The position numbers and the translations under genes are program-made. Shown here piece after piece: positions 5,581 to 64,000 of a stretch of 64,000 nucleotides of DNA. Where the stretch lies: assembly GCA_905178155.1 (NCBI GenBank), contig CAJINV010000014.1, positions 1 to 64,000 of the forward strand, written 5' to 3'. This stretch comes from Amoebophrya sp. A120. Taxonomy: Eukaryota > Protista > Dinoflagellata. The notes below the pieces were generated by a model. It was not told the DNA's origin. It did no database searches and saw nothing but the letters and a program-made list of their open reading frames with translations. Positions within the stretch are counted from its first letter, which is position 1. Each line of letters begins with the position of its first letter.

Positions 5581-5728
5581 TGTGTCAAGTGTCTACCATT
5601 TTATGTAGTGCGTTACTTTAAAAGAGCTTCCTTTAGGATCTTCTGTTGTTACTTTTTCAATTCCTTTTAGAGCAAAAACACGAAACACGATGGAACTGCA
5701 CCTATTCCGTACCATGCCTTGTTCTTGT

Positions 5729-8700
5729 TCATATGTCCACCTGATAAGAGAACTCCGCGTCGTCTCCCAGGCGAAAACGCTGTTGCTGCCGGGACGAGGT
5801 TATGCAGTGCAAGAGTATAATCGCACTCGTAATAATAAATTGCACTTATGCATTACAAATCTAGGCTGTTAAGGCAGATCCGCATTTACAAAAATAATTT
5901 GTAATGCTGAGGCAATTTGTCCTCATGCATTTACACGAGTAAGATACTTTTGCAATGCATAGAGGTCGTGACGTCCGTTGCGAGATTGAGCCCTCCTCTG
6001 TGCTGGTCTTGGACAAAGGGATCCAGAACGCTTGGATAGATCGCATCTTCCTTGGGCACGAAACCTGGCGTCGTCTGGTTGTACTGTCGCGTGGTGGCAG
6101 GCAGGGGCCCGCTCACGACGCTTTTTGCGAACATGTAGCGGGCGGCCGTGTCGGGAATCCCGGTCGCCCACGGCTTGGCGTGCATGTGAATGCCGTGAAT
6201 CTGCATGCGGAACTTGTTCTCCGTGCCCTGCGGGATCAGGGCGTAGAGCCGGTAAAACATCCCGCCGGTGGCACTGGAGACGGTGCTAAAACCGTGGTAG
6301 GTGAGCAGATAGGTGTCGCCCCCGTAATCGTAGTCGGTGGTGCAGGTCGTGCAGGGTCCGCGGCGCTGCCCGTCCTTGGAGTACTCGTGCGGCGCCGGGT
6401 ATGGAAGCGCCAGGATCGAAATTGAAAAAGGTTGAGTTTTCTTTGTTTTTATGCATAAAATAAACCTATATTGCTTATTTTCATCCCAATTTCTAAGCGG
6501 CGCATGACAATAAATTTTGGAGCCATGACAGAAATCCTGTTTGTCATGCGTTTTGGCTACAGCAGACTGCTTCTTTCACAGGCTGCTTTAGCAACAGTAT
6601 CTCCGCAGCCCCTCTATTAGAGGCTTACAATTGACCTCGCTTGCGGCCATCTCTGCTTCTCAGGCACTTCATGCAGCCTTGCATTTGGTTATGCATGGCA
6701 AATTATCGCAACTTTGTTCATTTCGATCCTGACGCTTCCATACCGGACCCACGAGGTCTTCCGCAATCACGTTGTGCAGCGAGGTGTGCAGGCGCACAAT
6801 GAGAAATACTTTTTGCCTCCCCCAGCCTTGGTCGTTCCACTTGATCGTGAGCGCGACCTGTTCGAACTGCCCACTACCCGACTTTATCCAACAGAAAAAG
6901 ACAGTGACAGGCACGGCATGTCTGTATATGCGGAGACAAATCGACCAAAAAAATCGGCACTGCATCATGTCCTACACAGTGTCTATGCTATGGAGTCGAC
7001 GCCCATGGCAGATTTTTCTACTGGTATTTTTAATTTTGCGTTACAAATAAACGTATACACCCTGCATGTGTATGGTATGGTATGGGCGTGCGTGGCGAGT
7101 AGTGTAGCACCTAATCCTTGTGCCTAGTACAACTACTTGTACCCGACTCGGGTGTTTTAGGCATTTCTGTGAGATAGATGCGCGGGGAAGAAAGTAGTCC
7201 CAGATGGGCGACACGATCTGCGTTTCGGTCGGATCTGCCGCGGGGTCGCGGGTGTTGCGCACTCCCACCAAACCGGGGATGGGGTATGCCAAGTCGCCGC
7301 TGGGAAGCCGGAGCGGCCTGTGCAGGCGCACGGTAGACGCCCGCGCGTCGTAGGACAGAGTCTGGTATCAAATGCAAATACGTCTGGGTCTGGAAACTTC
7401 AACTTGTGATGTGCTGAACTGTGAACGACAAACACACGACTTCCGAGTCATGCAGTCAAGAATGACAAATTTCCATACGCAGTCCACCGCATGAGGAACT
7501 GCGCTTTTGCATATATTTAGATTTTTACGACACGCCAGATATTAGCACAGTAAAAATTAAAATGTAAGACCAGCACTAATACACGTTCGTACTTAACTTT
7601 CGTCCAGACCCAGACATATTTGCAATGCTTACGTGCCGGAAGCGATCCGAATACATAAAGGCGGGGCCGTCGTAGCGGTTCCACCCGTTTTTCCCGCAGT
7701 ACTGCCGGTTTGCGTACAGGTGGAATCCGGGACGACAGGCCACGCAGTCGGGCGTTCCATGCACTGCGCAAGCAAATCCTTCCGAAGGGATCCCGTTGGG
7801 GCACAGGCACTTCCGCGCCGGGGCGATGGTCGCGGAGGTCGTCGCGGAGGTGACCACGTGCGCCACACTGGTACTGGGAGGAGGGGCGGTAGCAACTTCT
7901 ACACTGGTCGCGAGCCTCTTGCCAAACACCCGCACCTGTGTAATTTGCAGTATGCGGAACTCCCCCGCGGCAGCGCCGGGCAATTCCAGTACCACGTACC
8001 GGCCCGGCTTACCCCCTGCGCACTCCACGGAAGCGGTCCCAATTGTGGAGCTCCGGGCAGCATCCAGGAAGTCAGCATTATACACGGCGAAGCGATCCCA
8101 CCCTTTCCCGCTGTCGTACTTTAACGTATCGCAGATCTCATCCTCGTTTTGGGCAGGGCAGGCCGGATTTCCAATCTGCACGCAGGCGCCGTCCACGTAG
8201 CCCGCATCCGTGGCGGCGGTCCCCTGCAGGATCTTGCAGCTGGCGCTGTGCGACCGGCGGACAGGAGAGACGGAGATCGTCATTCCCTTGTCGTTGGCAT
8301 CGGTGTCGACACCGGAGTTTGTCCCCAGCACATCGGGCCCCCATAACTCCGTGTTGAAGAACAGCCGTCGCAGAACCCCATTGGTACTTTTGAGCGTGCT
8401 GATCTCGACCCTCGTAACCGTGAACAGCCCTCCGAGATCCACTTGCAACCAGGGACAGCGCAGAGTGGTCGAGTGGAAATTTGTATTATGATTCTCGTCG
8501 AGTATGTTTTGCGCTATCGCGGTAGTGCCCTCACCTGTTACGAAAGGATGGTCGCCGGCTGTCGTCACCGTTCCGAACCCTCCCTCATAGGGAGTGATGT
8601 CATCCGGCTTGCGCAAGGGCTTACACGCCTCGAACCTTTTGCCACTGTACAGTGTGTAGCAAAACGGCAAGTAATGAGGGGTGGCCGGCGGGTTCCGACA

Positions 8701-28007: not shown

Positions 28008-28168
28008 CACGAGGACCGCCATATTTTTATGCAGTGGTCCCGGAGCTGCTCCACCTGTAATCATCTTCTATTATTCGACTACTCCATTTCGAAAATGAAC
28101 ACGTTTCTTTGATAAGAATTGAAGCGCGTAATAAATTGTACAACGAGCAGCTGTACTAGGTGCCTCTC

Positions 28169-34100: not shown

Positions 34101-35667
34101 GCTACTTCATTGTCGTATGTCATACAACATTTTTAGTTCTCCGGAAGATTAGTGCTTGTGAGCTCCGCCTCCAACGAGTGTGTTTCATACCAAATTTAGA
34201 AAATAAAAGGCGGGCAGTTCTTCGCAGTCATCGACTGATCAATCGGACGACTGCGCCAATGCCACTGGATTAAAACTACTGCAAAAGAACAAGAAGCAGG
34301 GTTGTAAAACTAAATGGGATCGTTCCGAAGAAAACACTCAAGACTCCAAGAGCACCAGGATCCGGATACAACTGTAGGAATTAGACCACTACTTTCAACG
34401 AGCGTATTTATTATAAATATATCCAATATCAAGTAGTGGAAAAAGAGTACTTACTTTCATTTTCGTTGCAGCTGTTGCACCGAAAGCTCGTCTTCAGAGG
34501 CGCCAAGAATTATTGCAATGATCCGAAATCGTTCCTGAAACCAGTGCTGCGATGAACTCGTTCGATTTACGTGGCGAACGCAAAACAAATAGAATATCGA
34601 CACGAACCTGCAACGTTAATTTTAATACATGCTCTGCAACATCAAGCAAACCCACGGCCGGGTGGCGCACAGGTTGCAGGGAAATAAATGTGGTCCGCAG
34701 CTGCCCCTGCCGTTTATTTGCAAAGTTAAGCAATCCGAACTTCCTCATTTATGATTACAACATGGAAAAGCCAAAGCCAAAAGTTCCTCGATGCCAGCTT
34801 TTTTTTTTTTTGTCCCGCCGTGGCTGTAGCGCCACCAGCACATCATCAGCATACGACCACATGCGACCAAATTTATACTAACCAAAACAGAAAATCGATA
34901 CTAGTAGGTACCGAAGCTACTGAATGAAGCCGGAGCTCCTGCGGTGGAGGTGCTTCAACAAAAGTCGATCGTGTAGCAAAGTGATAAATCAGGAGGACTA
35001 TGCTGTACAACTCGCTCAACGTCGTGCATAAAAATTCCTCAATCTTGGAGCAGAATTCTATTATTTTGCTTGTTGGTTTCTTGTTGTGCTGAAAAAATAG
35101 TACAACTGGAAGATCTCGAAGAGCCTGCTGCTCACCTTTATTTTGCAAAAAAAAACACAGTCGCCGAGATTAAAAACACTCAGAAAAATCAAGGACTCTT
35201 GCAAAATGATCATAGTTAGACGTGTAAAAAAAAGCTACGTTTCTTCGAAAGTAGTAAGTAAATAGTTGACAGATGCCAGAAACTCCTGCGCTGTACTGCA
35301 AAGATTTTTTTCTTTCAGCATCGCGCTTTTCCTTTTCGATTTCGATTTTGTTCGGTACTATGTTTTTAATATCAATACTTGGCGGCCTTTGTTTAATATT
35401 TATATTGCGACAACGAATATAAAGAGCTATCAATGACTATAATCTGGTTGCTCCGGGCATAAGTCTTACTTAGAAATCATCTATGACCACAACAGCGTAT
35501 AAAAAAATTTTCGTCTTTATTATTTTGTAGAATGCAAAAAGTCAGACCATCGACGCAATCACGGCGCCAGCCGCGGCAACTAGTAACGCTGCGACGGGGA
35601 CGATGCGCAGTTTTCTTGTTCTCGCGTGAAGTGGCGGGTCGTGCTCGTCGTGGCCGAGCAGCAAACA

Positions 35668-35976
35668 CATGCATATGCAAAAGTGTCTCAGTCTGGAATA
35701 AACTTGTGTCGCTGTTGATACAACCAGCCTTGTCCTAGGTGTACGTACTTTTATTAAGTGCTTATTATATTTACCAGATTCAGAAGTCTTTCAGGCTTGC
35801 GCGACCGCTCATTTGTAACACCACGCATGGCAAATTATTAGCTTCCAGCACGCCAAAAGAGCCCCTGATGCAGCTCCTGCTGACTTGTAATTCAATATGT
35901 CGGCTGCATAGAAGATCACGACATCCTTCAAATCTCGCGTCACTAATCCAGACTTTGAGCTATTTGCATATGCATA
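35668..35976. mobile_element. Degenerate family A element downstream of the gene 3 stop (probable 3' UTR)
   Basis: ATGCATATGCAAA inverted repeat and GTCTGGA/TCCAGAC. Confidence 0.65.
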
Positions 35977-36067
35977 AGCAAATAGAGATAATTCGCGATC
36001 GCTATATGCGTTTCCGTCTTCCCATGGTCACCTCCGCTCCCCAGCATTGCTGTTTTGATCGCGATCG

Positions 36068-48000: not shown

Positions 48001-51000
48001 TTGCAGCTGTTGCATTACAAACTTGGCACAGATTTAGGCGCGGTTTAACCCTTCGAGTCTTTGTTGCGCGCAGCCGCTTGGTTGCGTACATGCGAGATGG
48101 GGAGGGCATCTCTCATGGCGATGCGTGCATCCAGTTTGTGCGACATGTATCGCATCGCTTTGGCCTTTGACTCCTGTCAGGGCGGCGTTAGAACAGATCT
48201 AGCCTCTGCCAATACCGTGGCGTTAGAAAAGATTTAGGGGAGGGCATGGGGAGGCATTTTCTCATGCGGGGAGGGCATTTCTCATGCGGAATAGGCATCA
48301 GGGAGCCCTCTAAAAATCTGCGATGCTAGGTCATGCATTCGAAGCATTATGGGTCATGCAAAATATGCATGACAACCCTGGCAATCTTCCAGACCCAGAC
48401 ATATTTGCATTTGATATGGACCTATGGATTGCGAATGTGTCTGGGTCTGGAGAGTTGAACTTGTAGTGCTGGTCTTTAATTATTTGTATTTCCTGTGTAT
48501 TAATAAAAATCTGAATCTGTATTGCATGGCCAACAACAACCAAGGTCGTGCCTCTTTTGTCATACAAAAACGTAGCCTCTCATGCGAATTGCTTATGAGA
48601 AAGCGCTCTGCAATAAAGTTGTCATGCTTGGCTGCATTCGGCAACGTCTTCATCATCCGGTGCTCAGCATCATAACTTTCCAGACCCCGACTTCATATTT
48701 GCCCTTGATAGGACCCAACCACCGACGCGGGGTTCGGTAGTTTTAACAATGTTCATCAGCTCTGCCTTAGTTGGATTTGATCCGTATGACAGTGCACATT
48801 CCCCCCTCCCCCTCACGTAGTAATGCAGAATACCATTTTTTCCCTTTCTTTTGGCACTCTCTGCATGTTAAATTTTGATTTAAGAATCTCAAACAGTATA
48901 TATTACATCCCGCGTGCAGATCTGTGTCTGTCGTGCGGAAGCCACCTCTCTGCCGTTGCTTGTGTTGTTGTTGTTGTTGATGCAATAAGTACAAATGAGG
49001 GGAAGAGGTGGCGGAGTTGTGCAGTCTCATAGTCCGACTGCGGGATGCATCCAGGAAAAAACACCCATCCCCATCCAATTTGTCATGCAAAACATGCACA
49101 AAATCCACTATTTGTCATGCAAAAAATGGATGGGGATGGGTGTTTTTTCCTGGATAGGATCCACAAGCACGTAGCCGTTATTTAACCGCTGTCGACAGCA
49201 GTCCCCCCGATTCCAGATTTCCATGTAAGAAAGTGTGTGGCTTTTTCCATCCGCAAACTCCACGCGCCACCAGCCTGCCGTGTCTCTGGTGTGGCTACAG
49301 ACCGCCGGCCTGCCAGTTCGCGTGGACGCTTGGTATTTTTCCCAGCCCCACTCGGTAACCCTGCCCTTCTCGTAGTACAGCGGATCTTCCGCTTGGCCGA
49401 CAAGTTTTTCCAAAACAGTAGTCGTGTAGTCTGAGCTCTGCGTGGCTTTCAGCAGAATGGGGTTCACTCGCAGTCGCGGACTTTCCTCCCACCAGGGCAC
49501 TTCAGTTGAGGGGATGTAGAAGAGCACGCCGCACTATGAAAGTGCACAACTCCCCCTCCGCCACAACATTTGTCACGCAAAATTTTAAGTCCACCCTTTG
49601 CCTGTTAGCACTGTTTGCATGACAGGCTCCGGAATTATATCCAAAACAGCACTAGTACAACCCTCTAGGGACTTCTCACGCAATATTAAAGGCTGCATCT
49701 TTGCCAGCGCTTGTGTTGCTGTTCATGCAACTACACAAATGCGGCGGAGGGGCAGTTGTTGTGCACTCTCATACACACAGGTTTAACACATCTCGCGAAT
49801 GAGGCACCACGTACAAGTACCGAAAAGACTTCGACGCAGTTAGAGCACTTAGGTCCACCCGCTCCCCATCCTGGCAGTTGTTTTCATTATCCAATGCAAA
49901 TATGTCTGGTGTTTTGTCTGGAAACAAGACCTTGGTACAGCACGGGGAAGAGAACGACTTGAACTTTTTGAAGAAAGAAAATAAAAGAGAACTACGTGAA
50001 TGCAGTATGTAGAGAGAGATTAAACATGCTAATATGTCCACCGGTGGTACTAATTATTACTACTTATACTATCACTTGCGCAACATACAATTTGGGTGCA
50101 ATGAACTTCTGCCCACGGGGTCCCGCAGGCTCTACCGAGGTGCTACGCTGGCCAAAGCGCTAGGCACCTGGGTCGGGAAGGATGCAAGGTTTCTTTGTCA
50201 TGCTTGTCCGGCATGACTGAAGAGTTTATTGTGACGGGTGTCCAAGAAGCGAGCCGTTTGCTTGTCATGCAAAACGCAGTTTGTCGTGCGGAAAGCACAA
50301 CACTAAGCCGCCCAAATATTTTTTTCTCATGCTCGGCTGTGCATTACAGAGAGTTTAATTATATTCACAACTGTTTAATATTCACAACTAAAAAGCATTA
50401 CAAGTTTCCAGACCTCCCAGACATATTTGCATTTGATAATCTCCCTTGTACGTTGGTTCGGACGCTGAGCAGTCAACGTTGGAATCGCTACAAATTGCTT
50501 CCTGTATCCTGTGTAAAAACGTCCCCGCCCAATGGAGGGTGTCATGCAAATCTGCGTCTTCCTTAAAATGTCTCTCATGCGGAGCCCCATGAGACGCATT
50601 TTCTAGTCGTGGCTTGGAATTTGCGATAATCGAATCGGCGCGATGATGTGCAGCTCCTAGATCGGTGATGCTACTGAACTAGCTAAACACAACTACACGA
50701 CGAGGCCAAACTTGTCATGCGCAACAGCTAAACCTTGTTGAGGTGTGTAGCAGATTTCCCATCTTGACTATGGGGTGTTTATGTACTAGAAAAGACCACA
50801 TGAAAAAAGCACAGACGATAAGCAACTGACGAGTATGGGGTATTTATGTACTGGAAGAGACCAATATAAAGCACAGAGAAGCTTCAAACTTTCAGGAAAG
50901 GAAGGAGGAGAACCAACTACGACGAGAAGAGAAATTGAAATAGAAAAGCATGCTACTATGTGGCCACTGCTAATATTCTGTACTGTGCTTCTATGGTGTG

Positions 51001-54000
51001 TGGCCGTTTTTACACAGGATACTCTTGTAGTCGGGTTTGCCATCCTGAGGATCCTCGTCCACATCGGGGTCGCAGACTGGGACGTCGCCTGGCAGCTGGA
51101 TGTGGTATGATGCACCTGCACTTGCACTCATCTGCGCATTCCAAGCCGTCTCCAAGTCATTCTGCGTCGGCGCAGAATGGTTCACCCCGGGCGGATCCAA
51201 CAGGATGTGAGCGTTGTTGACGCGATCTCGTCCCACGGTGCCGGTTCGTGCTCGATTCCAAATTCTCATGCTTGAGCGTCGCGTTGTCAAACTTGGTTAC
51301 GTGGATGGACGCTGCCACGGCGTGATTTTCATTTTTGCTTGGCAACTAGTTCATATCTAGAACGGGCGGGCGCTCCGCGCCCGCCGGCCCGGCGACAAGG
51401 GGGTGCAAGGGGGAGCGAGGGAGAAAGGGCCTACAGGGTAGCGGCTAGCGCTACAGCCTCAAAACATGCTGGACAGGCGAAAAAAAGAAACGGCAGCGCC
51501 CCTGGCCTTCCTCCCTCGGTCGGCGGGAGCGAAAGAAGTGTGGGTCGAGAGAAGGCCGCGAGGCGCCAGGGGCGGTAGGGGGCGCACAGCGCAGCCCCGG
51601 TCCGAGCCGCCACAGACAGGTCCGGCGGAGAGCGTGCCAAGACCCTTTTCGACGGCCCGGGAGGCGAGTCACAGGAAGATGAACGAAAAGACAACCCCAA
51701 AAAAAAGTAAGCAGGCCAAAGCCCGGGGTCGGGGAAGAAGCAAAAAGCCCCGGAAGCGAAAGGGGAAACGCCCAAACAGGCCGAAGGGGCGAGCCGTAAA
51801 GAAACCGGAAACACGCCCGGCGGCCCAAAGGACACGGGGCAAAATCAGGCAGCCCCGGTGAGGCCGAAGAGCCCCCGCGGCCGGCAGTGGGCACGCGACG
51901 AAGCCCGGCCTAGAGAGCCACAGGTGGCAGGGGAAGGCGCAGGATGCCACCAAACCCCTCGCAACAGGGGGCGAATGGCAAGGGGCGCCAGAATGCAGCA
52001 CGAATCCGGCCCGGGGTAGCCAATCGGCGGCCGCCAGCCAGGCATCTAAGAGGGTTCGGCAAGGGGAGACCGCAGCCCCGAGCCCCCTGCCCGAGGCTCC
52101 TTGACAGGCGGCCCGGGCGAGCTTTTGTTGGTCTATTGTGTTTCCATCGGGGTTTCTGGCTCCGGCTGCATTGGCGGGTTTTCTCACTAGTGTTTCCGCT
52201 TTCCCCAAAGTCGGGCTTTTTGTCACTAGTGGCTTCACTAGTGGGCGCCTTCACTAGTGGCGCCTGTCACTAGTGCCCCTCGTGCTTTTTTGTCACGCTA
52301 AAAACACTAGCAGGATTTCTACTAGTAGCCGTTTTTCTACTAGCAGCTTTCCACTAGTAGAATTCCTACTAGTAGCTTGCAGCCCCGCGTCCGCCAGAAT
52401 TTTTGCAATAAAATTATAGATAATTGTTCTGCTGCACCAACAAGATATTGCAAAAAGGAAGGCTGCGCTTCCAGCGTGACAGGTTCGGCACGGACTGCAG
52501 AGAAGTACCTGTTGGGCTTGACGTTAATGTAGTTGATGTAAGTAGCCTGATCAACATGCAGACGAGTGTCTTCAAGAATGTGTGACGCTGACGCAGGTAC
52601 TAGAGGTTCTGCATGACAAATTTGCACAACGAGAAGCCAAGACACGACGACGTCGCAACAGCAAAGGTCCACGTAACACTGGAGGCGAACGTGATATCAA
52701 GAGCGAGTGGGCTTTCCCGTCGGCAAACTCCATGCGCCACCATGCCCCCTTACTGTTGTTTTCTGCGTTGAGGGATATCGCCAGAAAAAACTGCTTCACT
52801 GTAAATTTGTAATGCACAAAATGTATTTCTTCACAAGTGTTTGCCTTGCTGTTGCTACACATGCAAGACAGTGGGGTTTTAGCTGTGCTGTTTTCCCTTA
52901 GGAACCTTGCATGGCAAATTTCTCTGTCATGTAGAGCAAACTTGTGATGCAAAACCTGCAAAATGAAAATCCTTACAATGAAACACTTTTTTTGTACGAT
53001 AAGGGAGCAAAGGTTTTCACTACCACCACCGTGCCTGGTGTTCATGCCCTTCTCGTAGCCTAGTGGTTTTATAGCGTCATCTATCCACATCACGTTTCTC
53101 TTTTCGCTATCAAAGGCAAATATGTCTGGGTCTGGAAGATTGCCATGTTTGTCATGCATATTTTGCATGACCCGTGAAGTCTGTAATGCATGCACGAGCA
53201 TCACAGATTTTTTTTAGATTATAGAGTGCTTCCTAATGCCTATTCCGCATGAGAAAAGCCCTCTACTCCGCGTAGTCCAAACTGGAGTCCTCTTTACTGG
53301 TCACGCAATACATTTTTTTTTGAATCCAGAGACACCAGCGTCACAAGTTTAGAATCTTCCAGACCCAGACATTCTTGAATTTGATATTCGCTTATGAAAT
53401 GCAAAAGTATCGCACTCGTACAAATGCACTACAAATTTCCTCAGCATGAGAAATAAAATTTGTAATGCAGATTTGCCTTAAGAAAAACATTTGTAACGCA
53501 TGATTGCAATACGAGTACGATACTTTTGCACAGGATATCGCTCTGTGTGGCCCAAAGCTCCGACGCCGGAACCTGGACTTCCTATGCAAGAAAAAAACTG
53601 CGTAAGTGTAGCTTTGTAATGCATAACTACATGCAACAGAATTACGCCTGTCATGCCAGACAACCATGCAGTCCTCTTTTCTATGTGTGTTTTCCCTTAC
53701 AAGCCACGCATGACAGGTTTATTTCGCTCCTGTCATGTAGCGCAAATTTGTGATGCTGTCCGCGGCCAACGAATAAAGTTACACTAACGCAGTTTTGTTC
53801 TTGGATACTTCCAGCTGCTCGTCTGCAGCTCTGGTCTTTCGTTCTACCTTCACTTTCTGCCCTTTCTTCGCGATTCGAGCTCTGGAGGAGAGCCCGATGA
53901 CCTCCGTGGTGGTCTCTTTCTCCCGACTGATGCTTGTGAAATCATGCCCACGCTCTTTATTCTCGTGAGGACTTCTGCTCTGCACCGCGCTCCTCTTCGG

Positions 54001-57000
54001 GGTAGTTTCGGTTCCACTTGCGCTCGCAGTATTTGTTGAATTTGTTGCAGTTGCTGCGTTCTTTGTCTTTCGGGAGTAGTTGTGGTTGGAATTATAATTA
54101 TTCTTCTTCATCTTCTTCTGGGGCTGGCGTTGGGCTTGGCTTTCGCTTTGATGCCCCTCCTTCTCTTCTTCTTCTTCTTCTTCTTCTCGCGAGGTTGCTA
54201 TTAATGTCACCTGCGTCGTGGTCGCCGTCGCAGCAGAGGGCGGCGCGGCATGCGTTGCGAAGTATACCTCCCAATCAAATGCAAAAATGTCTGGGTCTGG
54301 AAGAGTCCGAGATTTGGTATGCTGTTTTTGCATGACACATAATGTCTGTCATGGAAGTCCTAGCATCACAGGTTTTTAGAGGTTTTCCTGATGCCTATTC
54401 CGCATGACAAATGCCCTCCACGCGTAGCACAAACTGGACTCCTCTTGCTGGTCACGCAATACAGAATTTTTCAGAGTCCAAAGTTAGCATCACAAGTTCC
54501 ACTCTTCCAGACCCAGACATTTTTGCATTTGATACTCCCAATCCTCGTCCGCGACCGCCTGCACAGGGATGACGCAAGAAAAGTAGTCCGTCACACCAAA
54601 GAACTCGTTCCCCGGCATGTCATTTGTAAAAACGTCCCCACCCCAGAGTCAAGATGGGGATTTTGCAACACAAACCTGAAAGTTTTGGGAGCCACGCATG
54701 ACAACTTGCAGGCTGTAGTGTAATGGTGTTTAGCAAGGGAAGCCGCATAACAAATCCATCTCCTTATCCTGTTGACAGCATTACAACTTCCATAACACGA
54801 TGGGAAATGCCTCTCCTGGGGATGCGCATTACAAATGCTCTTGCGCTTGCAGATCTGCATTACAACTCTGGTGTGGGTACGTTTTTACTTACGGTACGGC
54901 ACGCTGGCACACTCCCGCTTGGTCGCGGCGTCCTTTTTACAGCAGGCCCCTTTCGTATGAAAGAGCACAACTCCCCCTCCCCCTCATTTGTCATGCAAAA
55001 TTCCAAATCCACCCTTTGCCTGTTAGTACTGTTTGCATGACAGATTATTCCGGAATCCGAAACAGCACTGCCATCGCCTAGGAATTTGTCATGAAAAAGC
55101 TGCATGATCCTGTGTTGCTGTTCATGCAACACAAATGAGGGGGACGGAGGGGGAGTTGTGCACTGTCATATTTCGATTTGCCGTCCCTGGAGTCGCACCC
55201 GAAGCACCACCCCTCGATGGGAAGGTTTTCGTCACTCATCTCCCGGCACACCGCGGGGCACTCCATCTGCTATTGCGTTCTCAAACGTTACATTCTCAAC
55301 GGTTACATGAATTATTTGTCATGCAAAAATACCATAAGCAACCACACGGCCCAGCGGCTGTGCATGACAAATTCTCGAAGGGCTATTAAACAGAATCTAA
55401 ATCTGTCCGGAATTTGTAATGCTACAGGTCCAGCAACCTCCTTCTGGCTTTGGATTTTCATTTTGTCACTCTTGCATCACAAATCCATGTCACAGTTGAG
55501 AACATAAGAACGTTTGAGAAGGCCATATCTGCTTGGGTCCCATTGGAACTGCCGCCATCTCGTCCTCGGTTGCTCGCCCGGGCAGGTTCCCCGGCGTGTA
55601 GAGCACGCACTGATGATACGGAAAGTAGCTCCCGTCGGGTAGCTTCCCAAAGTAGCTCGGCGGGATCTGTTTGCACTCTGGGGGGTCGTTCTTGTCATTG
55701 TACCCGTATCAAATGGAATATTTGATGCCGGGATCCTCTTTGGGGAGATTCATTTTGCAAAAACACTTGTAACGCTCTGCGGACAGGTGGACGAGCAAAT
55801 AATCTGTGATGCATGTTGATGCGCTACCGCGCATGTTTTTTCGTTGTAAAATGCAAAAACGCAACTTCTCATGCACTTCACGCACTATCCAGTCGCTCAG
55901 AAACTAACTTGTCATGCGCGTGCCCATGATCATATTTGACGCGGCTCATGATCCGCAAAGTAGCATCGCAACTTTCCTTCAGAGGACCCAGATGATGTGT
56001 TTTCAATGCATAGCCTGCAACACGCACCAACCTCGCTCCCGTCCGCTATGAGAGTGCACAACAACTCCCCGTCCCTCTCATGTGGATGTTGCTGGCAAAA
56101 AAAGCAATACAAGTGTCGGCAAGTAGAATACAGGTTTTGCCGCGTGACAAATTCATCACCCAGGACTGTAGTGCTGCTTGAGCTTCCAGAACTTGTCATG
56201 CGAAAAGTGCCAAGAGGCAGAGGGTGGTGTGGATTTGGTATTCTTGTTTTGCATGACAAATGGAAATGAGGTGGAGGGGGAGCAGTTGAGCACTCTCATA
56301 TCCGCTGCGTCGCACCCACGACATCGGCCAGGTGTGGCGCACATACTCCGCTATGGAAGCGTCAGGGTTGAAATCGACAAAGTTGAAATGATTTGTCATG
56401 CATAAAATGGATACCAGTTGGAAGCCCAATTTCTAAGCGGCGCATCACAAATTATGATGGTGCCTAAATCCAGTTTGTAATGCTGTTTAGGCGAAAAAGA
56501 CTGATTCTCTCATGCTGGTGTAGCAGCTCGAACTGTAACCCCAAACAGGCTTGCAATCGGCCTCAGTTGCCTGCTCTGCAACACACGTATTTCGCGTCAT
56601 GCATTTTATGCATCACAAATTTTTCGATTTTGTCAATTTCGATCCTGACAGTTCCATATCCGCTCTGCAGAAATTAGAGTCGCCGTTACTAGATTATGCA
56701 GTGCAACAGTATCGTACTCGTACTAATCAATGGCGTGTAAGTTTATGCATTACAAATTGTTCTTTAGGCCAATCGCCCGCATTTTTACAAAGTAATGCAG
56801 CTATTGCAATTTTTACTAGTACGCTACTTTTGCAATGCATATACATCATCTTCCGGGGTGACGTGGTCGTAGCGAATGCACTGCTGAAAGCCTGGCCCGC
56901 TATCACAAGGAAAAAATCCCCCTCCCCACATCAAAACGAAAATTCTGAGGCTGAGTGTGCGTACACAATGCAGGTCTGTCTTGCAGAAAGTGCTTGGTAG

Positions 57001-60000
57001 CATTTTCTCAGCCTGTTGAGGTATCGAGAAGGCTAGCAATTACGCACCGCAAACAGGTTTTCTGTGGTCGAAAGCGCGTGACAGACGGGACTCGAATGCG
57101 CGGCCACATGGCCCCCATTAGATAGTTGCCCTCTACTAGGCAAGACAAAGGTGATTTATGACCACAAACCAGATTCAGAAACTTCCATTTTGATATGGGG
57201 AAGGGGGATTTTTCATTTTGACACCCGCAGTGTTTTCCGTCTGCGGAGCACCGCGGCGTCGCTCCCGACGAGAGGAAAATAGGACTCCCGCCGGTGAAGG
57301 ATACACCATTTTTCGCATATCGGCACGCCTGTGTCATTCTTGTGTAGTCTACCGTTGACTCGGCTTTCACGGCGTTGTAGTCGTGCACCGCTTTCAGCTG
57401 ACAATCACCTGTTTCCGTATAAAAGGCAAAGCCCGTGCAGTCGCTCCGTGCTGCACACAACGCCAGGCATTCGTCGTATATTGTAAGGAAAAACTCCTCC
57501 TCCCCATATCGAAACGAAGTTTCTGACGCTGGATTTCCGTACACAAATCCGAGCTGTCTCGCAGGAGAGGACTAGAGGCATACGCCGCGCCTGAATACAG
57601 AGCTTCTGACGTGGACGCTTAGCGTAAGCGTCGGAAATGTCTATGCTATAGCCCAAGCAGCATCGCAAACCGTCCGCATAATGCGGCGGAGACTGTAGAG
57701 CTGCCTTCTTGCAGGACAAATGTGATTTGTGCCCTCAAATCAGCAACGCAAGAACTTTTAGGAGACATACCTTTTCCATATGGGGAGGGGGGATTCTTCC
57801 TTTCAATATCGTACGTTTTCTGAAAGGGGTTGTCCAGATCATTGCCCTCGTGGTTACGGTCCTCGTGCCTCCCACACGCATCGTTGATATCAAGCTTATC
57901 CAAGAAAAAAACACCATCGCAGTCACATTTTGGAGGGTATGCATCAGACTCTCGTATGCCAAACTTTTTTTGTGTTGCAAAAACATAAGGAGAAATCGCC
58001 TATAAAAAGCCCTGCTCTTATTTGTCTGTGATGCAGTTCTGCGCATGACAAATATTTTTGTTTATGCAAAAATATGCAAAAGTGATTGTGATGGTGTTTT
58101 TTTCATCTTGGATAAAGCTGCGGGTAGTTGTAGTACGGCAGGGGCGCCAATTATGGAGGCGTCCGGACGGAAATTTTTGACAAAGATGGAATAAATCTAA
58201 ATTTCCAGGCATGATCAAATGCAACGCACAGAGTCGTGCCTGTCTTGCGGGGAGGGCAAGCGACGCCGATAATTGCAAGCCTGTTCTTTAGGGGTCCTCA
58301 CGACGAAGCTACTAAAGTAGCATGACAGACCTCGTCTTCTTACTTTGCCCAAAGACCCTGACAAACTGGACGATTTCAAGCATCGCAAAGTATTTTTTCA
58401 ACTTCGTCGATTTCGATCCTGACACTCCCATACAACTACACGTCGGCACGCGTCCGTCATTTCCAGGTAGTCGGTTTTATTATTGGCAACCTCCTTGAAC
58501 GCCGTGCCTCCAACTTCGCCTTTCACCGCACAATTGTTTCCTTTGTTGCGCTATGCAATGCAGAAGTATTGCACTCGTACTACTTGCAAGTATGCATCAT
58601 GACAAGAAATCTTCTTCCTATAGGTAAAACAGCACGACGACAAATTCCATTTTTCTTGTAGCCAAAATTTGTATATGCAATTTATACTAGTACGATACTT
58701 TTGCAAGAATGCATATGGGTTTCCGCATGTGCACTAAGCCCGCGCAGTCGGGATTTTCCGCGCACCAATCCCGGCACTCCTCGTATGTCAAATGAGCCTT
58801 GACGCGGTAAACAGTACCCCCTGCAATGAGCTTATCCGCTCCTTCGACATTCGTGCGAAGCTTCTTCTCGCAGAAGTCGTCAATGGGCTGGTGTAGTGCG
58901 GACCGGCACTGATCGGTCATCCGCAGGTACGGTATGAGAGTACACAACTCCCGCCGCTTCCCCTCATTTGTATTGCATCATGAACAGCAATAGATACAAG
59001 CGTCAGCAAGAATGCAGGTTTCGCATGACAAATTCAAATTTGGACAGGAGTGTAGTGCTATTCGAACTGCCAGAACTTGTCATGCGAGCAAGGCCATCAA
59101 GAGCCAAGAAGTAATGTAATGTAAACTACTAGGCATTTTGCAAGACAAATGAGGGGGCGGGTGGTTGTCGTTGTGCACCCTCATATACGTTATCGCCTCC
59201 CCTGGCTTGTCCTCGAGGTCCAAATCGTTGAACGGAGCGTTTTTTATTGCACAGTTATCCTCGTCGGAAAGAGCAGTTCCAACAAACACAAAACCCGTGC
59301 AGTCGGCGTATCTTCGGCAAAAATCCTGGCACTCCTCAAAGGTGAGATGCCCCATCACGCGCCCCATGTCCCCTCCGACGTCTTCGTCGTTGCCCTTGAG
59401 ATTCTTATTGTCCTGCCTTTTGCAGTATGCATTGCAAAAGTACCGTATTAGTACCAATTGCGATTACAAATTTTATCAGAAAATAAAACGAAATTTGTAA
59501 TGCTAATTTTTTTTTTTGCTAATTCAGGTATAAAAGGTAGGTTTGTCATGCAAGATTGCAACTAGTACGAGTACGATACTTTTGCACTGCATACGCAGAC
59601 GTCCTCGACTTTTAAGCTTGTTGTTCCACGACCCGAATGCAGCCCGCTCTTGGTTTCTTTATTGCAAGAAAAAATCCCCCGCCCCTCCCATATCGCAAAG
59701 ACACGCCTAGGTGGAACATTTGCAGAAGTGCTGATCTGTGGCTACCGATCGCGTGTCTTGCGAGAAGGCAACTCCACAGGCTCCGCCGCATCATGCAGGC
59801 GGCTTGTGATGCTGTGGGCCCTACAGCGTAGACGTTTGCCATACTGGGTGCCTGCTATGTGAAAACAATGAACAACTTAATACTATACGCCTGCAGTTCT
59901 CTGCTGCAAGACAAATCGGATTTGTGCAGTCACATCACGCAAATCCAGCATCAGAAATTTCGTTTTGATGTGGCGGGCGGGGACGGGGAGATTTTTCCTT

Positions 60001-63000
60001 GCGGTACTCTTGTGAGGACATTTCCGAGGTGGACACCTGCCTCGCGTTCGCCTCTAGAAAACCAGTATTAGAGTTTACTGTGTCCACCTGGGACTTTCCC
60101 AAGATGAACAGCCGTTGGAGCACGACGCCGTCTTTTCCCGGGCGCACCTACTGAGAGGAAAAGTCTCCCCTCCCCATATCGAGCCGAAGTTTCTGCTGCT
60201 GGATTTGCGTACAAAAATCAGATCTGTCTTGCAGAAGCACGCGCCTGGCCGCATTTTCTGAGCCTGTTTGGGTATAATGCACAAGGCCAGCAAGAGCAAT
60301 TGCGCATGACAAACAGGTTTGCAGTAGTCGAAAGCGGGTGACAGACTTGCTCTGGAATGCGAATGCGTCAAATGTTGGCTCCTATAACAAACACTATACG
60401 CATGACAAAGATGATATTTGTGACCACAAATCAGCACCACAAATTTTCGTTTTGATATGGGGATGGGGGATTTATTTTCATTTTGATAGCACCGTGATTT
60501 TGTGCACTTGCCCATTGCCCCCCTCCGGGTCGTTCGGGTCATGCAGGTCGTATTCCACTACGTTTCCGGTCAGCCTTATGGATGTGTCAGAGTTGAAATC
60601 GACAAAGTTGAAATAATTTGCCATGCATAAAATGGATGCCAGTTGGAAGCCCAATTTCGAAGCGGTGCATGACAAATTATTCGAGCATCGGAATCCAATT
60701 TGTCATGCTGTTTGGGCACAGGCGACTGCTTTTGTCATGCTACTTTAGCAGCTCTATTTCAAACCCTAAACAGGCTGACAGTCGGCCTCACTTGCCATCC
60801 CGGCAAGACAGGCACTTCATGCCTTGCATTTTATGCATGACAAATTATTTCAACTTTGTCGATTTCAAACCTGACACATCCATAAGCCTGTCTGTGGCGT
60901 AGCTGTTGTTGTACTTATTCAGATCGCTAGGATAGGTATCCAAGAAAAAAACTTCGTTACTCGATATAACACAATAAACGCCCCCAAACAAAATAAAACT
61001 GGTTTCGCTATGGGCAGCAGGGCACTTCCGCATTCCAACTTTCCAAGTGCTAGAGCTATCAGGCGGTCATCTGTCGTGTGTTGACTCTTCTCCCAGGTGG
61101 TGACTGTTTGGCATATCGCGCCAGGCCACTGCACAACCCTAACTACTTAAGCTAGCGCTGCGCCCCCGTCGGCCCTTGACTTCACGAAAGTCTGCGGTCC
61201 TTGACTTCAACCAAGACCGGCTCCTAAAGATTTCCTAAGGGGCCGGCTTTGGAAAAAGTTCGGGAGGCTGGGCTTTTATCAATTCTGGCGCCGGAACTGG
61301 AAAAAGCTCAGAAACGAAGAAACGCCCTGAACTTTTTCGAAAGGGCGCGGCCCCAAGCACTATCTGGGTGGCTTTAACACGTGCCGGGGCACGGCCGGAG
61401 TGCGGCCCTTTTTTCGGTGTCTGCGTCTACTTGATTCCCGGCAAAAATTGCTCGGGTTCTCAAGAAGCCGCGCCGTTTTTTTTTTGGTGCGCCGCAGTCA
61501 TCACCCCGAGGGAATGCTAGCTGGGCTGGCATGCCGGAAAAGAGGGCCGCACCACTCTCCACCCAGATCCGTGGCGTAGCTGTTGTTGTACTTATTCAGA
61601 TCGCTAGGATAGGTATCCAAGAAAAAAACTTCGTTTATCAAACAAAAATCTGTTATCGTTATCGGATTGGAATTTGCTGGCAAATGCCAAATTTTTTTTA
61701 AGTTAAGCTACTGACTTAGCTACCTCAACTATGTATGATTTTGAACCACTTGCGTGCATTTGGCCAAGCGCCGCACCGAAGCCTGGATCATGTCGAGCCC
61801 ATTCTGCCGGACCGTTTCGAGCTGCGCGCCAACCCTCCCAGGTGGATGCGATTTGCTCAGCTTCCGGCAGTGCAAGTTGGAAGCTTGTTTTGGGCTCATA
61901 AAGATCAATTTGTAATGCGGACCTGCGTCACCGCCGCGTCACGTTTTTGACATGGGAGAAGTGCTGCCGTGCCCACTGCATCACGCAGGTAGATGCCCAG
62001 AAATAAGGTCTTTTTGGGTGCTCTGGTTGCCGCCCAGTCGTTGATGATGAAATCTGCCCACCATCCCGTGGCCACCATCGTCGCCGGGCTCTGGCCTGAG
62101 AAATTACAGGAAATAGGATGGCGCGCGGACTATAAAAGTGACCAAAAAGTTTCGATGTTATCGGTTTCGGCCAGGGCCTCGGGGATCTGGCCAATCTGGC
62201 CAGCAAAAGTGGCCACTTTTCCGAAGCCTCCGGGCAAACCGATAACAAGCACCCTTTTTGGTCACTTTTATAGTCCGCGTGCCGTCGTGCTTCGTGTCTG
62301 TTATCGGTTTCGGCTTGGCCACCCCCCCGAAACCGATAACAGAGCAGGGCTTTGCTCAGTTTATCGGGCCCGTGCCGTCGTGATAAAAATCTGTTATCGG
62401 TTGCCCTTTTGACATCGCGCCAAAGCGAGCCTGCGCGAAGTAGACCCATAAACTTGAGCTAGCCACGACCTGAGTCGGACCTTAGAAGCTGTCTGGCATG
62501 ACACCAGGCGCGAACCTGTTGCATGTTCTCCTGCATTACTACAGAGTTAATACATATTTGCACAGTTTTTTTCTTGCATAACAGGTCTGAGAGGACCCAC
62601 AGCCGTCGGTGAAGGCAGCGGATGGAATTTGGCTCCACGAAGTCTCCGAGTTCACCTTGATCCACATCAGGTCGTTGTCGGTCGCGCTATGAAAATTGTC
62701 GCTGTGAATGCCTGACCCGTCGAGCGACTTGGAGAGGTCCGTGTCCGGGGGCGGGCTCCCGCGGACGCGGGCGACCACTTGTAGTCTCTTGTCCGCTGGG
62801 GCAGATCCCACGGTCATGAAATAAAACTCGGCCTCGCTCTGCGTCAGCTGCTCGTCGCAATGGTGCACGGGGTCGGCGACTAGATGGCACTGATCGATGT
62901 CATATCCTGTCCAACCTGTCTCAATGGTATTTTCTTGCTTCAGGCACCCCGGTCGCATCAGGTAGCACTTTCGTTTTCCGCTCTCCGCACTATCCTCGAG

Positions 63001-64000
63001 GAAGAACGAGGCGCAGTCGTGTGTTTGCGCGCACAAGTACCGGCACTGGTCCAGGTTATAGTTATGGAAGCGTCAGGATTGAAATCGTCAAAGTTGAAAT
63101 AGTTTGTGACGCATAAAATGCAACCCACAAAATGCCTGTCTTGCAGAGTAGGCAAGGGAGGCAGATTGCAAGCCTGTTGAGGGGTAGACATAGAGCTGCT
63201 AAAGCAGCACGACAAACGGCGTCTCCCTTACCCAAACAGCACTACAGACTGGATTTCGGTTCTACCCAAATTTGTCATGCTTTGCTTAGAAACTGGGCTC
63301 CAACTGGCATGCGTTTTCTGCATCACGAATTATTTCAACTTTGACGATTTCAATCCTGACACTCCCATAATAGTTGCGGTCCTCGTACATGCTGACGAGG
63401 ATGGTCGCATCATAGTCAGGTGGTGAGTCATCACCATTTTATCAAATGCAAAAATGTAGTGTCGGTCTGGAAACCTGTGATGCTAATAAAGCGTAGATGG
63501 CGGAAGAACTGCTTCTCTTCCGAATGCAGCACTACAGCATGACAACTTTCCAGAGCGCTTTGTTCTCATACGCAATCCGCATAAGAAGCTGCCTTTTTGC
63601 ATGAAAACAGTGGCTGCCACTTTTGTTGGTTCTGCAATATAGGTTTTCTTCCTTTCCAGGAGTGTTGAGCTAGCATTACAAGTCCACTTTTCCAGACCCA
63701 GACGCATTTGCATTCGATACTTCTTTATACAATTTCTCATCCGCGTACGCCCCCCCGGGTAGACACAGGCCCTACTACAGCGAAAAATGCCCCCACCCCA
63801 TTGCTGCGGCGCCTGCCGTGCTACTTCGGTGACACGTGACTGCGTCCTGCTGTCCGCTGACAGTGCTACCGCTGCTTCCCCCAGTGATGCCACCTACGGA
63901 CAAAACACGGGGACACGATTGCGGCCTCCAAGTGCCGCCCCCGGGGTCCGTCTGTGCTTGTAGTGCAGGAGCCTATGCTGACGCATCGGGAGAGGGTAGG
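36068..64000 (-). CDS. Gene 3 (5'-incomplete): giant PAN/apple + F-type lectin (fucolectin-like) + Cys-rich protein with 47 introners in the window
   Basis: Stop TAG at 36068-36070 after GGGGDG|KTETY. Junctions checked over most of 36068-53800 are in frame. Motifs include CSHT..GWWRVEF..IWNRGDCCRQRL and PAN modules such as ECQDFCRRYADCTGFVF and ECRDWCAENPDCAG. Confidence 0.82.
36090..36297. mobile_element. Introner family B
   Basis: DR TTCCA. Confidence 0.92.
36368..36620. mobile_element. Introner family J
   Basis: DR CCGGG. Confidence 0.9.
36738..37043. mobile_element. Introner family I
   Basis: DR TCTGC. Confidence 0.92.
37139..37400. mobile_element. Introner family A
   Basis: DR TCGGA. 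Confidence 0.92.
37979..41922 (-). CDS. LINE ORF2: AP endonuclease + reverse transcriptase, frameshifted near 40160
   Basis: APE motifs GTWNV, TQES, CYAPT, GDFNA, YDHIFV, SGHRLV. RT motifs KKGDK..NYRPIALL, FADFLKAFDS, GIRQGSSLSPLLF, FVDD, FTYLG. Confidence 0.92.
42652..43841 (-). CDS. LINE ORF1-like frame with no recognised domain; open to the element's 5' junction
   Basis: 376-aa ORF inside the TSD-bounded element, with a basic C-terminus and no ATG at its 5' end. Confidence 0.7.
44259..44511. mobile_element. Introner family A
   Basis: DR GGGGT. Confidence 0.9.
44645..44917. mobile_element. Introner family A (left end CCT)
   Basis: DR TGCTG. Confidence 0.85.
44950..45102. mobile_element. 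Introner family C
   Basis: DR AGCAA. Confidence 0.88.
45143..45460. mobile_element. Introner family B
   Basis: DR AGCCC. Confidence 0.92.
45518..45827. mobile_element. Introner family I
   Basis: DR CCCGT. Confidence 0.92.
45866..46088. mobile_element. Introner family F
   Basis: DR GCTGG. Confidence 0.92.
46159..46480. mobile_element. Introner family H
   Basis: DR GGGGG. Confidence 0.9.
46627..46832. mobile_element. Introner family K (inverted relative to 28352-28560)
   Basis: DR TTACC. Confidence 0.92.
46912..47303. mobile_element. Introner family A variant
   Basis: DR GTCCT. Confidence 0.88.
47424..48416. mobile_element. Introner family A with nested SINE-like copies and a J-family fragment
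   Basis: TATCAAATGCAAAT inverted repeat; DR TTGAT/TGGAC. Confidence 0.8.
48423..48710. mobile_element. Introner family A
   Basis: DR GGACC; starts 6 bp after the previous element. Confidence 0.88.
48785..49031. mobile_element. Introner family E
   Basis: DR ATCCG/GTCCG. Confidence 0.85.
49048..49156. mobile_element. Introner family G
   Basis: ATCCAGGAAAAAACACCCATCCCCATCCA perfect inverted repeat; DR GGATG/GGATC. Confidence 0.9.
49157..49534 (-). CDS. Gene 3 exon: F-type lectin domain with an intact fucose-binding-type motif
   Basis: CSHT...WWRVEF...NRGDCCRQRL matches the H...RxDCCxxR signature of fucolectins. Confidence 0.85.
49535..49773. mobile_element. Introner family E
   Basis: DR CGCAC/CACAC. 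Confidence 0.88.
49888..50438. mobile_element. Introner family A variant (related to 46912-47303)
   Basis: TIR present; DR decayed; frame restored. Confidence 0.8.
50505..51021. mobile_element. Introner family M
   Basis: TATCCTGTGTAAAAACG perfect inverted repeat; shares the internal GGTGTTTATGTACTGGAA repeat with 32658-33526. Confidence 0.88.
51277..52696. mobile_element. Introner family D containing a Helitron-like insert
   Basis: Imperfect TIR with a GTTACGTGGA core; removal restores ADGKAHSL|.SMRIWNR. Confidence 0.72.
51346..52420 (-). mobile_element. Non-autonomous Helitron-like element
   Basis: Minus strand reads A|TCTATAA...GGCGGGCGC-GGA-GCGCCCGCC hairpin...CTAG|T; no TSD. Confidence 0.7.
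52776..53001. mobile_element. Introner family L
   Basis: DR AGGGA. Confidence 0.88.
53108..53386. mobile_element. Introner family A
   Basis: DR TTCGC. Confidence 0.92.
53393..53537. mobile_element. Introner family C
   Basis: DR TCGCT; starts 6 bp after the previous element. Confidence 0.92.
53583..53807. mobile_element. Introner family F
   Basis: DR CTTCC. Confidence 0.9.
54273..54534. mobile_element. Introner family A
   Basis: DR CTCCC. Confidence 0.9.
54618..54896. mobile_element. Introner family M (TGT...GTA ends)
   Basis: GTAAAAACGT.CCCAC.CCAGAGT inverted repeat; DR CGGCA. Confidence 0.85.
54956..55170. mobile_element. Introner family E
   Basis: DR TTTCG. Confidence 0.92.
55271..55527. 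mobile_element. Introner family J
   Basis: DR TCTGC. Confidence 0.9.
55707..56012. mobile_element. Introner family A (degenerate)
   Basis: TATCAAATG...CAATGCATA; DR ACCCG/GCCTG. Confidence 0.65.
56047..56300. mobile_element. Introner family E
   Basis: DR TCCGC. Confidence 0.9.
56352..56658. mobile_element. Introner family B
   Basis: DR TCCGC. Confidence 0.92.
56695..56841. mobile_element. Introner family C
   Basis: DR TAGAT/TACAT. Confidence 0.85.
56901..57222. mobile_element. Introner family H (ends ACA)
   Basis: DR CCCGC. Confidence 0.88.
57479..57808. mobile_element. Introner family H
   Basis: DR TCGTA. Confidence 0.9.
57897..58114. mobile_element. Introner family F
   Basis: DR AAGCT. 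Confidence 0.9.
58152..58432. mobile_element. Introner family B
   Basis: DR CCAAT/CAACT. Confidence 0.8.
58552..58715. mobile_element. Introner family C
   Basis: DR TGCGC/TGGGT; frame restored. Confidence 0.8.
58933..59185. mobile_element. Introner family E
   Basis: DR TACGG/TACGT. Confidence 0.85.
59426..59593. mobile_element. Introner family C
   Basis: DR TGCAG/CGCAG. Confidence 0.88.
59660..60006. mobile_element. Introner family H
   Basis: DR TTCTT/CTCTT. Confidence 0.8.
60149..60488. mobile_element. Introner family H
   Basis: DR GCACC. Confidence 0.88.
60577..60884. mobile_element. Introner family B
   Basis: DR AGCCT. Confidence 0.92.
60937..62580. mobile_element. Introner family F expanded to 1.6 kb by nested sequence
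   Basis: TATCCAAGAAAAAAACT / AGTTTTTTTCTTGCATA; DR ATAGG/ACAGG. Confidence 0.8.
61571..61635 (+). repeat. Exact 65-bp duplicate of 60894-60958 (exon plus introner end)
   Basis: Direct comparison of the two sequences. Confidence 0.92.
63063..63369. mobile_element. Introner family B
   Basis: DR ATAGT. Confidence 0.92.
63440..63719. mobile_element. Introner family A
   Basis: TIR present; DR CATTT/CTTCT. Confidence 0.82.

What the first reader, a model, noticed from the sequence alone, without database searches (positions are those of the whole stretch)
5801..63719. A non-GT-AG intron system: ~85 TAT...ATA inverted-repeat elements with 5-bp target duplications that must be removed precisely
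Seen: ~13 sequence families share only TAT/ATA termini, family-specific TIRs and a 5-bp DR. Removing the element plus one DR restored the frame at every junction I translated and rebuilt recognisable motifs (J-domain HPD, PAN, F-type lectin). DRs are arbitrary (CCCCC, TCGGA, GATGA), so no register gives GT-AG at most sites. Families occur in both orientations (K at 28352 vs 46627). Known: inverted-repeat/direct-repeat non-canonical introns were reported in Amoebophrya (Farhat et al. 2021, BMC Biology), so the class is not new; to my knowledge the excision machinery is unresolved. Inference: removal is guided by the paired TIR stem and works in either orientation, using a modified spliceosome, a non-spliceosomal nuclease/ligase, or DNA-level excision like ciliate IESs.
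Basis: partly seen in the sequence, partly recalled or inferred. Interest (0 to 1): 0.9.

Follow-up and report, generated by a model that had tools for sequence, protein, structure and literature searches.

The report
Known Amoebophrya introners, fixed cut rule
Dozens of short transposon-like inserts fill three genes of what is likely the marine parasite Amoebophrya, a kind of intron described in 2021; they are missing from the RNA of the two genes that could be tested although they lack normal splice signals, and the cuts likely follow one fixed rule that could make the unknown splicing machinery testable.

Summary
Real, but a known system. I curated 84 TAT...ATA inverted-repeat elements (53 with an exact 5-bp direct repeat, 31 imperfect); an 85th runs off the window. 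They match the introner elements Farhat et al. 2021 described for Amoebophrya A120 (TAT + 7 nt + AAA ends, 5-bp repeats), and the window's LINE has its best hit there (69%). RNA-like contigs skip 14 of 14 elements laid directly, each by element + 5 nt; summed lengths fit the other 47 elements of two genes exactly. DNA-like contigs keep the elements. The 23 elements of the third gene are untested. What is added: at 9 junctions with imperfect repeats only one register fits all, 1 nt before TAT and 4 nt after ATA on the transcript (chance about 0.01-0.03), whereas the paper calls the sites variable. Removal does not need an exact repeat. Selection for RNA pairing (G-U test) and drift towards GT were tested and not supported. 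The machinery is inferred: most likely a U1-less spliceosome; a Euglena-like non-spliceosomal route stays open. The scan noted position-set cuts beside hairpins in other protists before.

The parts
5801..25355 (-). 23 TAT...ATA elements in gene 1 (5801, 6400, 6885, 7366, 9299, 10744, 11092, 11692, 12010, 12288, 12559, 13192, 13496, 13677, 16751, 19557, 19927, 20327, 20780, 22026, 24445, 24759, 25038)
   Evidence: frame restored in silico; removal from RNA not tested
5729..26180 (-). Gene 1: very large Kringle/PAN/lectin-like protein; in-frame TAG at 19831-19829 and a 1.3-kb interruption near 22808-24139; may be a damaged or duplicated copy; 5' end not defined
   Evidence: low RNA cover and about double DNA depth
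28352..33893 (-). 13 elements in gene 2 (28352, 28593-28804, 28908, 29193, 30227, 30653, 31125, 31434, 31895, 32222, 32363, 32658, 33587)
   Evidence: RNA contig lengths 623 = 623 (8 elements) and 160 = 160 (5 elements, assuming a 30-letter overlap of two contigs)
28169..34010 (-). Gene 2: J-domain protein; its HPD motif is split by element 33587-33893
   Evidence: (DnaJ E 8e-5 on the first exon alone), RNA contigs
35668..63719 (-). 48 elements in gene 3, one of them (35668-35976) in the 3' untranslated part
   Evidence: 14 skipped directly in RNA contigs; 3403 = 3403 letters across 36 elements, two shared with the 14
34799..63772 (-). Gene 3: PAN/lectin-like protein, 1719 open codons in the window, stop at 36070-36068; the transcript starts beyond the window
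   Evidence: one 7099-letter RNA contig
37455..44055 (-). 6.6-kb element that holds a non-LTR retrotransposon (ORF 42655-43908, endonuclease 40060-41931, reverse transcriptase 37982-40252) and is still removed as element + 5
   Evidence: included in the 3403-letter sum
28593..28804 (-). Element whose spliced end is the ATA in register with the inverted repeat (0/5 direct repeat), not the ATA 6 nt further out that has an exact repeat
   Evidence: inferred from a 6-letter length difference; boundary moved after seeing the difference
60937..62580 (-). Element with a duplicated left end (60937 and 61614); both are used as alternative 3' cut sites, each at element + 5
   Evidence: X1, X2 skip 1649; X3 skips 972
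56695..63719 (-). Junctions with imperfect repeats that fix the register: 56695, 58152, 58552, 58933, 59426, 59660, 60937, 63440 (plus 35668)

Best explanation
These are non-autonomous transposon-like inserts (introners) with 5-bp flanking repeats that are absent from the RNA of the two testable genes, likely because a modified, U1-less major spliceosome cuts one base before the TAT at the 5' end and four bases after the ATA at the 3' end. Shown: the elements stay in DNA-like contigs; RNA-like contigs lack element + 5 nt; both orientations are removed; exact repeats are not needed. Supported on 9 junctions: the intron is N-TAT...ATA-NNNN on the transcript. Inferred: insertion by an unknown transposase acting in trans that makes a 5-bp target duplication; the two TAT/ATA ends, brought together by the inverted repeat, are read as landmarks; only the +2 U of the usual GU donor is kept and the 3' site is measured by distance instead of by AG. 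Because 1 + 4 equals the 5-bp duplication, any insertion in either orientation restores the original coding sequence, which would explain why exons tolerate so many.
For: 14 of 14 elements in 56660-64000 skipped by length + 5 in up to four contig sets of one sample. Length sums 3403 = 3403, 623 = 623, 160 = 160 cover all 61 elements of genes 2 and 3. X6 contigs run through five elements with their flanks with 0-1 differences (table 8). Polarity: first T lost at the donor end in 1 of 231 elements, last A lost at the acceptor end in 11 of 231, p 0.006, genes on both strands included. Two elements (7366, 29193) are plain GT-AG in this very register. In other loci 170 of 247 elements have an exact 5-bp repeat against at most 22 for any other length 2-8. 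Farhat et al. found 83 of 89 spliceosomal proteins, no U1, and the same repeat layout in 15% of canonical A120 introns.
Against: No test here touches the machinery. The +1 base is G in only 29 of 84 (exon background 31%) and there is no AG preference. Drift to G at +1 seen in the window (6 to 0) did not repeat in other loci (0 to 2). No G-U excess, so RNA pairing is not shown to be selected. All register-fixing junctions lie in one minus-strand gene of one sample; three of them (58933, 59426, 59660) also allow register 4, so dependence on element orientation is not excluded within a family. X1-X4 are guessed to be RNA, are assembled contigs that drop minor forms, and may be the window's own source. 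Farhat's Fig. 3 legend calls the sites variable.
Confidence: 0.55

Rival explanations
1. Same RNA-level, fixed 1 + 4 removal, but by a non-spliceosomal nuclease/ligase or a separate machine that reads the stem end, as proposed for Euglena nonconventional introns.
For: No GT or AG preference; Euglena uses a paired motif with fixed unequal spacers, 3 nt at the donor and 5-6 nt at the acceptor (PMC12501133), and its excised introns are circles, not lariats (review PMC11282704). 70 of 75 folded elements pair end to end.
Against: The invariant +2 U and two GT-AG members in the same register fit a spliceosome; the spliceosome is nearly complete in A120; no G-U excess.
Confidence: 0.3
2. Removal is at RNA level but the cut position inside the duplicated 5 bp varies from site to site, as Farhat et al. 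state, or depends on element orientation; the common register here is chance.
For: Only 9 informative junctions; chance 0.008-0.03 under a simple null chosen after the fact; Fig. 3 legend of PMC7789003.
Against: All nine agree; every joint removes exactly length + 5; donor/acceptor asymmetry across 231 elements. Perfect repeats make aligners report arbitrary sites, which alone would give the paper's 'variable' picture (inference).
Confidence: 0.08
3. The elements are cut from the DNA in the expressing life stage, like ciliate IESs.
For: TIR plus short repeat anatomy suits a transposase; only the 15 best of 1458 joints were shown, so rare excised DNA forms are unseen.
Against: X6 contigs keep the elements at even depth 40-51; X1 behaves like RNA (no cover of 22670-24003, contigs ending at gene 3' ends, depth differing by gene); the polarity follows the transcript.
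Confidence: 0.04
4. The skips are reverse-transcriptase jumps across a hairpin between direct repeats (a known artefact, recalled), and the genes are dead.
For: Hairpin plus repeat is the anatomy that causes such jumps; no direct-RNA reads were available.
Against: All 61 elements are missing together from the dominant contigs; sites with 3/5, 2/5 or 0/5 repeat identity are removed by the same length; removal rebuilds frames of 1719 and 450 codons and a J-domain.
Confidence: 0.03

Closest known systems
Introner elements among the non-canonical introns of Amoebophrya sp. A120 (Farhat et al. 2021, PMC7789003; classed as TIR DNA elements of unknown family in PMC12130899, Dataset S2)
   Same: Ends start with TAT, seven looser bases, then three or more A; 5-bp direct repeat example; about 240 nt mean length; many families; no own transposase; tens per gene. 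The window's LINE has its best hit in A120.
   Different: The paper gives repeats of 3-5 nt, inverted repeats of 8-20 nt and variable splice sites; here the removed length is always element + 5 and one register (1 + 4) fits. Sequence identity to their families could not be checked (motifs not found in 12 of 14 supplement files searched).
Euglena nonconventional introns (PMC12501133; review PMC11282704)
   Same: No GT-AG; paired motif near both ends; fixed, unequal spacers between motif and cut, longer on the 3' side; repeats at the junction.
   Different: Motif CDG/CHG with spacers 3 and 5-6 and a purine starting the next exon, against TAT/ATA with spacers 1 and 4; unrelated lineage; circles shown there, products unknown here.
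Fritillaria borealis non-canonical introns (as reviewed in PMC11282704)
   Same: MITE-derived introns with TIRs and target duplications, removed by a changed major spliceosome.
   Different: Preferred end dinucleotides (AG-AC, AG-AT) there; none here beyond +2 T.
Ciliate internal eliminated sequences (recalled)
   Same: Transposon-derived inserts in coding regions that must be removed precisely.
   Different: Removed from DNA; here DNA contigs keep the elements.

Membership tests
Amoebophrya A120 introner elements | Inverted repeat at both ends starting TAT, N7, AAA | tested here: met
   TAT at the 5' end in 78 of 84, strict TAT-N7-AAA in 44 of 84 (definition)
Amoebophrya A120 introner elements | 3-5 nt direct repeat at the exon/intron boundary | tested here: met
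   5 bp, exact in 53 of 84 here and 170 of 247 in other loci
Amoebophrya A120 introner elements | Removed from RNA without GT-AG | tested here: met
   for 61 of 84; GT-AG in 2 of 84 in the fitted register
Amoebophrya A120 introner elements | Repeated families | tested here: met
   11 clusters in the window; 56 of 84 match other loci over 80% of their length, up to 98% identity
Amoebophrya A120 introner elements | Host is Amoebophrya A120 or a close relative | tested here: inconclusive
   LINE reverse transcriptase: best hit and 4 of 22 hits named Amoebophrya sp. A120, 69% identity at best; no host gene could be matched; genus likely, strain not established
MITE / TIR DNA transposon | TIRs, fixed-length target duplication, no coding capacity | tested here: met
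   (longest stop-free stretches in the long elements 77-193 codons apart from the LINE; these were not searched against families)
MITE / TIR DNA transposon | Cognate transposase and empty sites in related genomes | tested here: inconclusive
   no whole genome held; no orthologous exon among 164 loci
Spliceosomal (U2-type) intron | GT-AG (or GC-AG) ends | tested here: not met
   5 of 84 GT-AG in any register
Spliceosomal (U2-type) intron | Lariat with branch-point A; needs U2/U5/U6 | not testable with these tools
   A at -7 is kept in 228 of 231 but not more than its donor-side partner (3 vs 9 losses, p 0.15)
Euglena nonconventional intron | N3-CDG ... CHG-N5-6, purine at exon start | tested here: not met
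   N-TAT ... ATA-N4; first exon base C 19, G 23, A 27, T 15
Ciliate-type IES | Absent from the expressed DNA | tested here: not met
   X6 contigs span elements intact; other life stages not tested

The most novel reading that the evidence does not exclude
Amoebophrya's 'variable' non-canonical splice sites are one strict code, N|UAU...AUA NNNN|, read from transposon ends by distance: the machinery has dropped +1 G and the AG and cuts 1 + 4 bases outside the repeat, which exactly cancels a 5-bp target duplication in either orientation. That would be a second, independent ruler-type splicing code beside Euglena's and would make the host splicing-immune to this transposon family.
Probability: 0.6. 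Interest if true: 0.68.

Novelty: already known. Interest (0 to 1): 0.42.

Why it matters
The class is published, but how tens of thousands of such introns are cut is open, and the paper left the borders undefined. A single register gives a concrete splice code: it would fix gene models, say where to look for a branch point or ligation ends, and explain why insertions into exons are harmless. It also offers a direct comparison with the spacer rule shown in Euglena.

Tried and rejected
No whole genome is held, so snRNAs, a transposase and other genes could not be searched. A gene 1 exon found no longer relatives (weak search). Rfam gave 0 matches. Stop-codon counts did not separate the six registers. 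Drift towards GT: 6 to 0 at +1 and G in 5 of 6 non-TAT donors in the window (p 0.03, 0.02) but 0 to 2 and 2 of 6 in other loci: rejected as unsupported. Branch point at A -7: inconclusive. Selection for RNA pairing by G-U against A-C: none. In one search, 88 of 247 elements could not be given a strand and 12 more with under 3/5 repeat identity were dropped before the counts; loci under 1500 bases were left out. No empty-site allele among 164 loci. The family motifs were not found in the supplement files searched of PMC12130899. Look-ups of earlier scan notes by place and by sequence were empty.

Full report
Observation. A scan for any 5-bp direct repeat around inverted ends returned 82 candidates, 41 with TAT..ATA ends; five Markov controls gave 11-16 candidates and none with those ends. 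With gapped scoring, 53 of 57 candidates scored 20 or more, against 0 in five controls. A library of those ends found further termini with imperfect repeats. Hand curation gave 84 outer elements: 23, 13 and 48 in three minus-strand genes. The repeat is exact in 53, 4/5 in 14, 3/5 in 11, 2/5 in 5, 0/5 in 1. Clustering gives 11 multi-member groups and 15 singletons at bit score 80 (23-35 groups over three thresholds), and the six largest groups hold both orientations. Removing element + 5 nt opens frames of 1719 (gene 3), 450 (gene 2) and 3001 codons (gene 1); +3, +4, +6, +7 give at most 400, 235 and 1031. Pfam on single exons: Kringle and PAN above cut-off, DnaJ and F5/8-type below. GT-AG is possible in some register at 5 of 84 sites.

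RNA and DNA. Eleven runs were listed; seven were laid. In 56660-64000, contigs of X1-X4 (one sample, RNA by guess) show 15 joints: all 14 elements, each skipped by its length + 5, and an alternative end at 61614, also + 5. One 7099-letter contig has 3403 letters between window positions 57224 and 35662; my list predicts 3403 across 36 elements, including the 6.6-kb element that holds a LINE (the end at 35668 was set with help from the contig). In gene 2 a contig has 623 letters across 8 elements; my first list gave 617, and moving the right end of element 28593 from 28810 (exact repeat) to 28804 (in register with the inverted repeat, flagged, repeat 0/5) gives 623: a fit made after the fact. 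Two adjoining contigs give 160 letters across the other 5 elements if they overlap by 30 letters; predicted 160. So 61 of 84 elements are supported, 14 directly and 47 by sums; gene 1's 23 are untested. X1 behaves like RNA: no cover of 22670-24003, contigs ending downstream of the stop codons, depth differing by gene. X6 behaves like DNA and its contigs run through elements 28908, 30227, 31895, 33587 and 35668 with flanks, with 0-1 differences; only 15 of 1458 joints were shown, so rare excised DNA is not excluded. These runs may be the window's own source and are not independent strains.

Register. Where the two 5-bp flanks differ, the RNA shows which letters are kept. Counting letters removed before TAT on the transcript, the allowed values are 0-2 (56695, 58552), 0-1 (58152, 60937, 61614, 63440), 0-4 (58933) and 1-5 (59426, 59660); only 1 fits all. 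A contig end limits 35668 to 0-1. The chance of a common register under random choice is 0.031 for eight independent sites and 0.008 for nine. The intron is thus likely N-TAT...ATA-NNNN. All nine of Farhat's commonest A120 site pairs have T as second base (GT-AC, CT-AG, AT-AG and so on, each 2-3%), which fits. Limits: one gene, one strand, one sample; three sites also allow 4.

Test outside the window. A pattern scan gave 164 stored loci, 489 kb, holding the same families. In those over 1500 bases I found 247 elements without scoring the end triplet: TAT 224 and ATA 229; exact repeat of 5 bp in 170, of any other length 2-8 in at most 22. Removing + 5 (or + 8, same frame) puts 169 (165) junctions in long open frames against 72-88 for other lengths; 147 could be given a strand, 55 plus and 92 minus. 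Over all 231 elements the donor-side first T is lost once and the acceptor-side last A 11 times (p 0.006; 1 vs 5 in the loci alone). Against my first reading: drift to G at +1 did not repeat, the A at -7 is not specially kept, and G-U is not enriched over A-C (279 vs 246), so pairing in RNA is possible (70 of 75 fold end to end) but not shown to be selected. Positions 1-3 and 11-13 pair in 82-97% of elements, positions 4-7 in 35-74%, which looks more like sequence landmarks than a perfect stem.

Organism and literature. The LINE's reverse transcriptase has its best hit in Amoebophrya sp. A120 (69%); the strain is not established. Farhat et al. [quoted passage not shown] PMC12130899 (passages; 22 of 58 A120 rows of Dataset S2) lists them mostly as TIR DNA elements of unknown family with repeat lengths 2-5 and mixed sites. 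PMC12005148 (passages) finds mainly GT-AG in another Amoebophrya. PMC12501133 (abstract, section 8) shows the Euglena spacer rule; PMC11282704 (passages, section 6) reviews Fritillaria and Euglena. The Roy et al. dinoflagellate introner preprint was seen only as a listing. Five searches showed no paper that states a fixed 1 + 4 register; subscription papers are mostly missing and Fig. S23, whose legend places the repeats 1-5 nt from the splice sites, may show it.

Mechanism. Shown: kept in DNA, missing from RNA, length + 5, both orientations, exact repeat not needed. Supported: fixed, transcript-polar 1 + 4 cut. Inferred: origin as MITE-like insertions moved in trans; removal by a U1-less major spliceosome that keeps only the +2 U of the donor and sets the acceptor by distance (0.55). 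A non-spliceosomal route of the Euglena kind remains at about 0.3; variable register, DNA excision and reverse-transcriptase artefact (recalled as a known artefact) are unlikely.

Verdict. The added value is junction-level confirmation and a candidate splice code from nine sites. Interest 0.42.

Noticed in passing
window 48417-48422 and 53387-53392: Six bases between neighbouring elements leave a net exon of one nucleotide; both are inside the exact 3403-letter sum, which suggests removal one after the other.
   Followed up: partly
window 37455-44055: A near-complete non-LTR retrotransposon (endonuclease and reverse transcriptase in overlapping different frames) sits inside an introner, which is still removed as element + 5.
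   Followed up: partly
window 29480-30155, 32684-32875, 47916 onward: Introners nested in introners; 29480-30155 and 47424-48416 share about 450 bp at 75% identity.
   Followed up: partly
window 19829-19831 and 22775-24170: Gene 1 has an in-frame TAG and a 1.3-kb interruption flanked by a roughly 30-base duplication without TAT/ATA ends; DNA depth near 18000-19300 is about twice that of gene 2, with fixed differences: perhaps a duplicated or damaged copy.
   Followed up: partly
window 27385-27697: A decayed element at the 3' end of gene 2; the RNA contig begins inside it (27581) and keeps that part.
   Followed up: no
window 36930-37043, run X9: 253 reads have a loose end at 36930 that looks like a template-switch adaptor (recalled) and 588 run past 37043 into unrelated sequence: a copy of this family seems kept in an abundant RNA at another locus or strain.
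   Followed up: no
window 1412-2284 and 4891-5618: Two arrays of a 91-97 bp repeat in opposite orientation, about 3 kb apart.
   Followed up: no
window 63773-64000: A further element starts at 63773 (TAC) and runs off the window; RNA contigs leave the window sequence exactly at 63772.
   Followed up: partly
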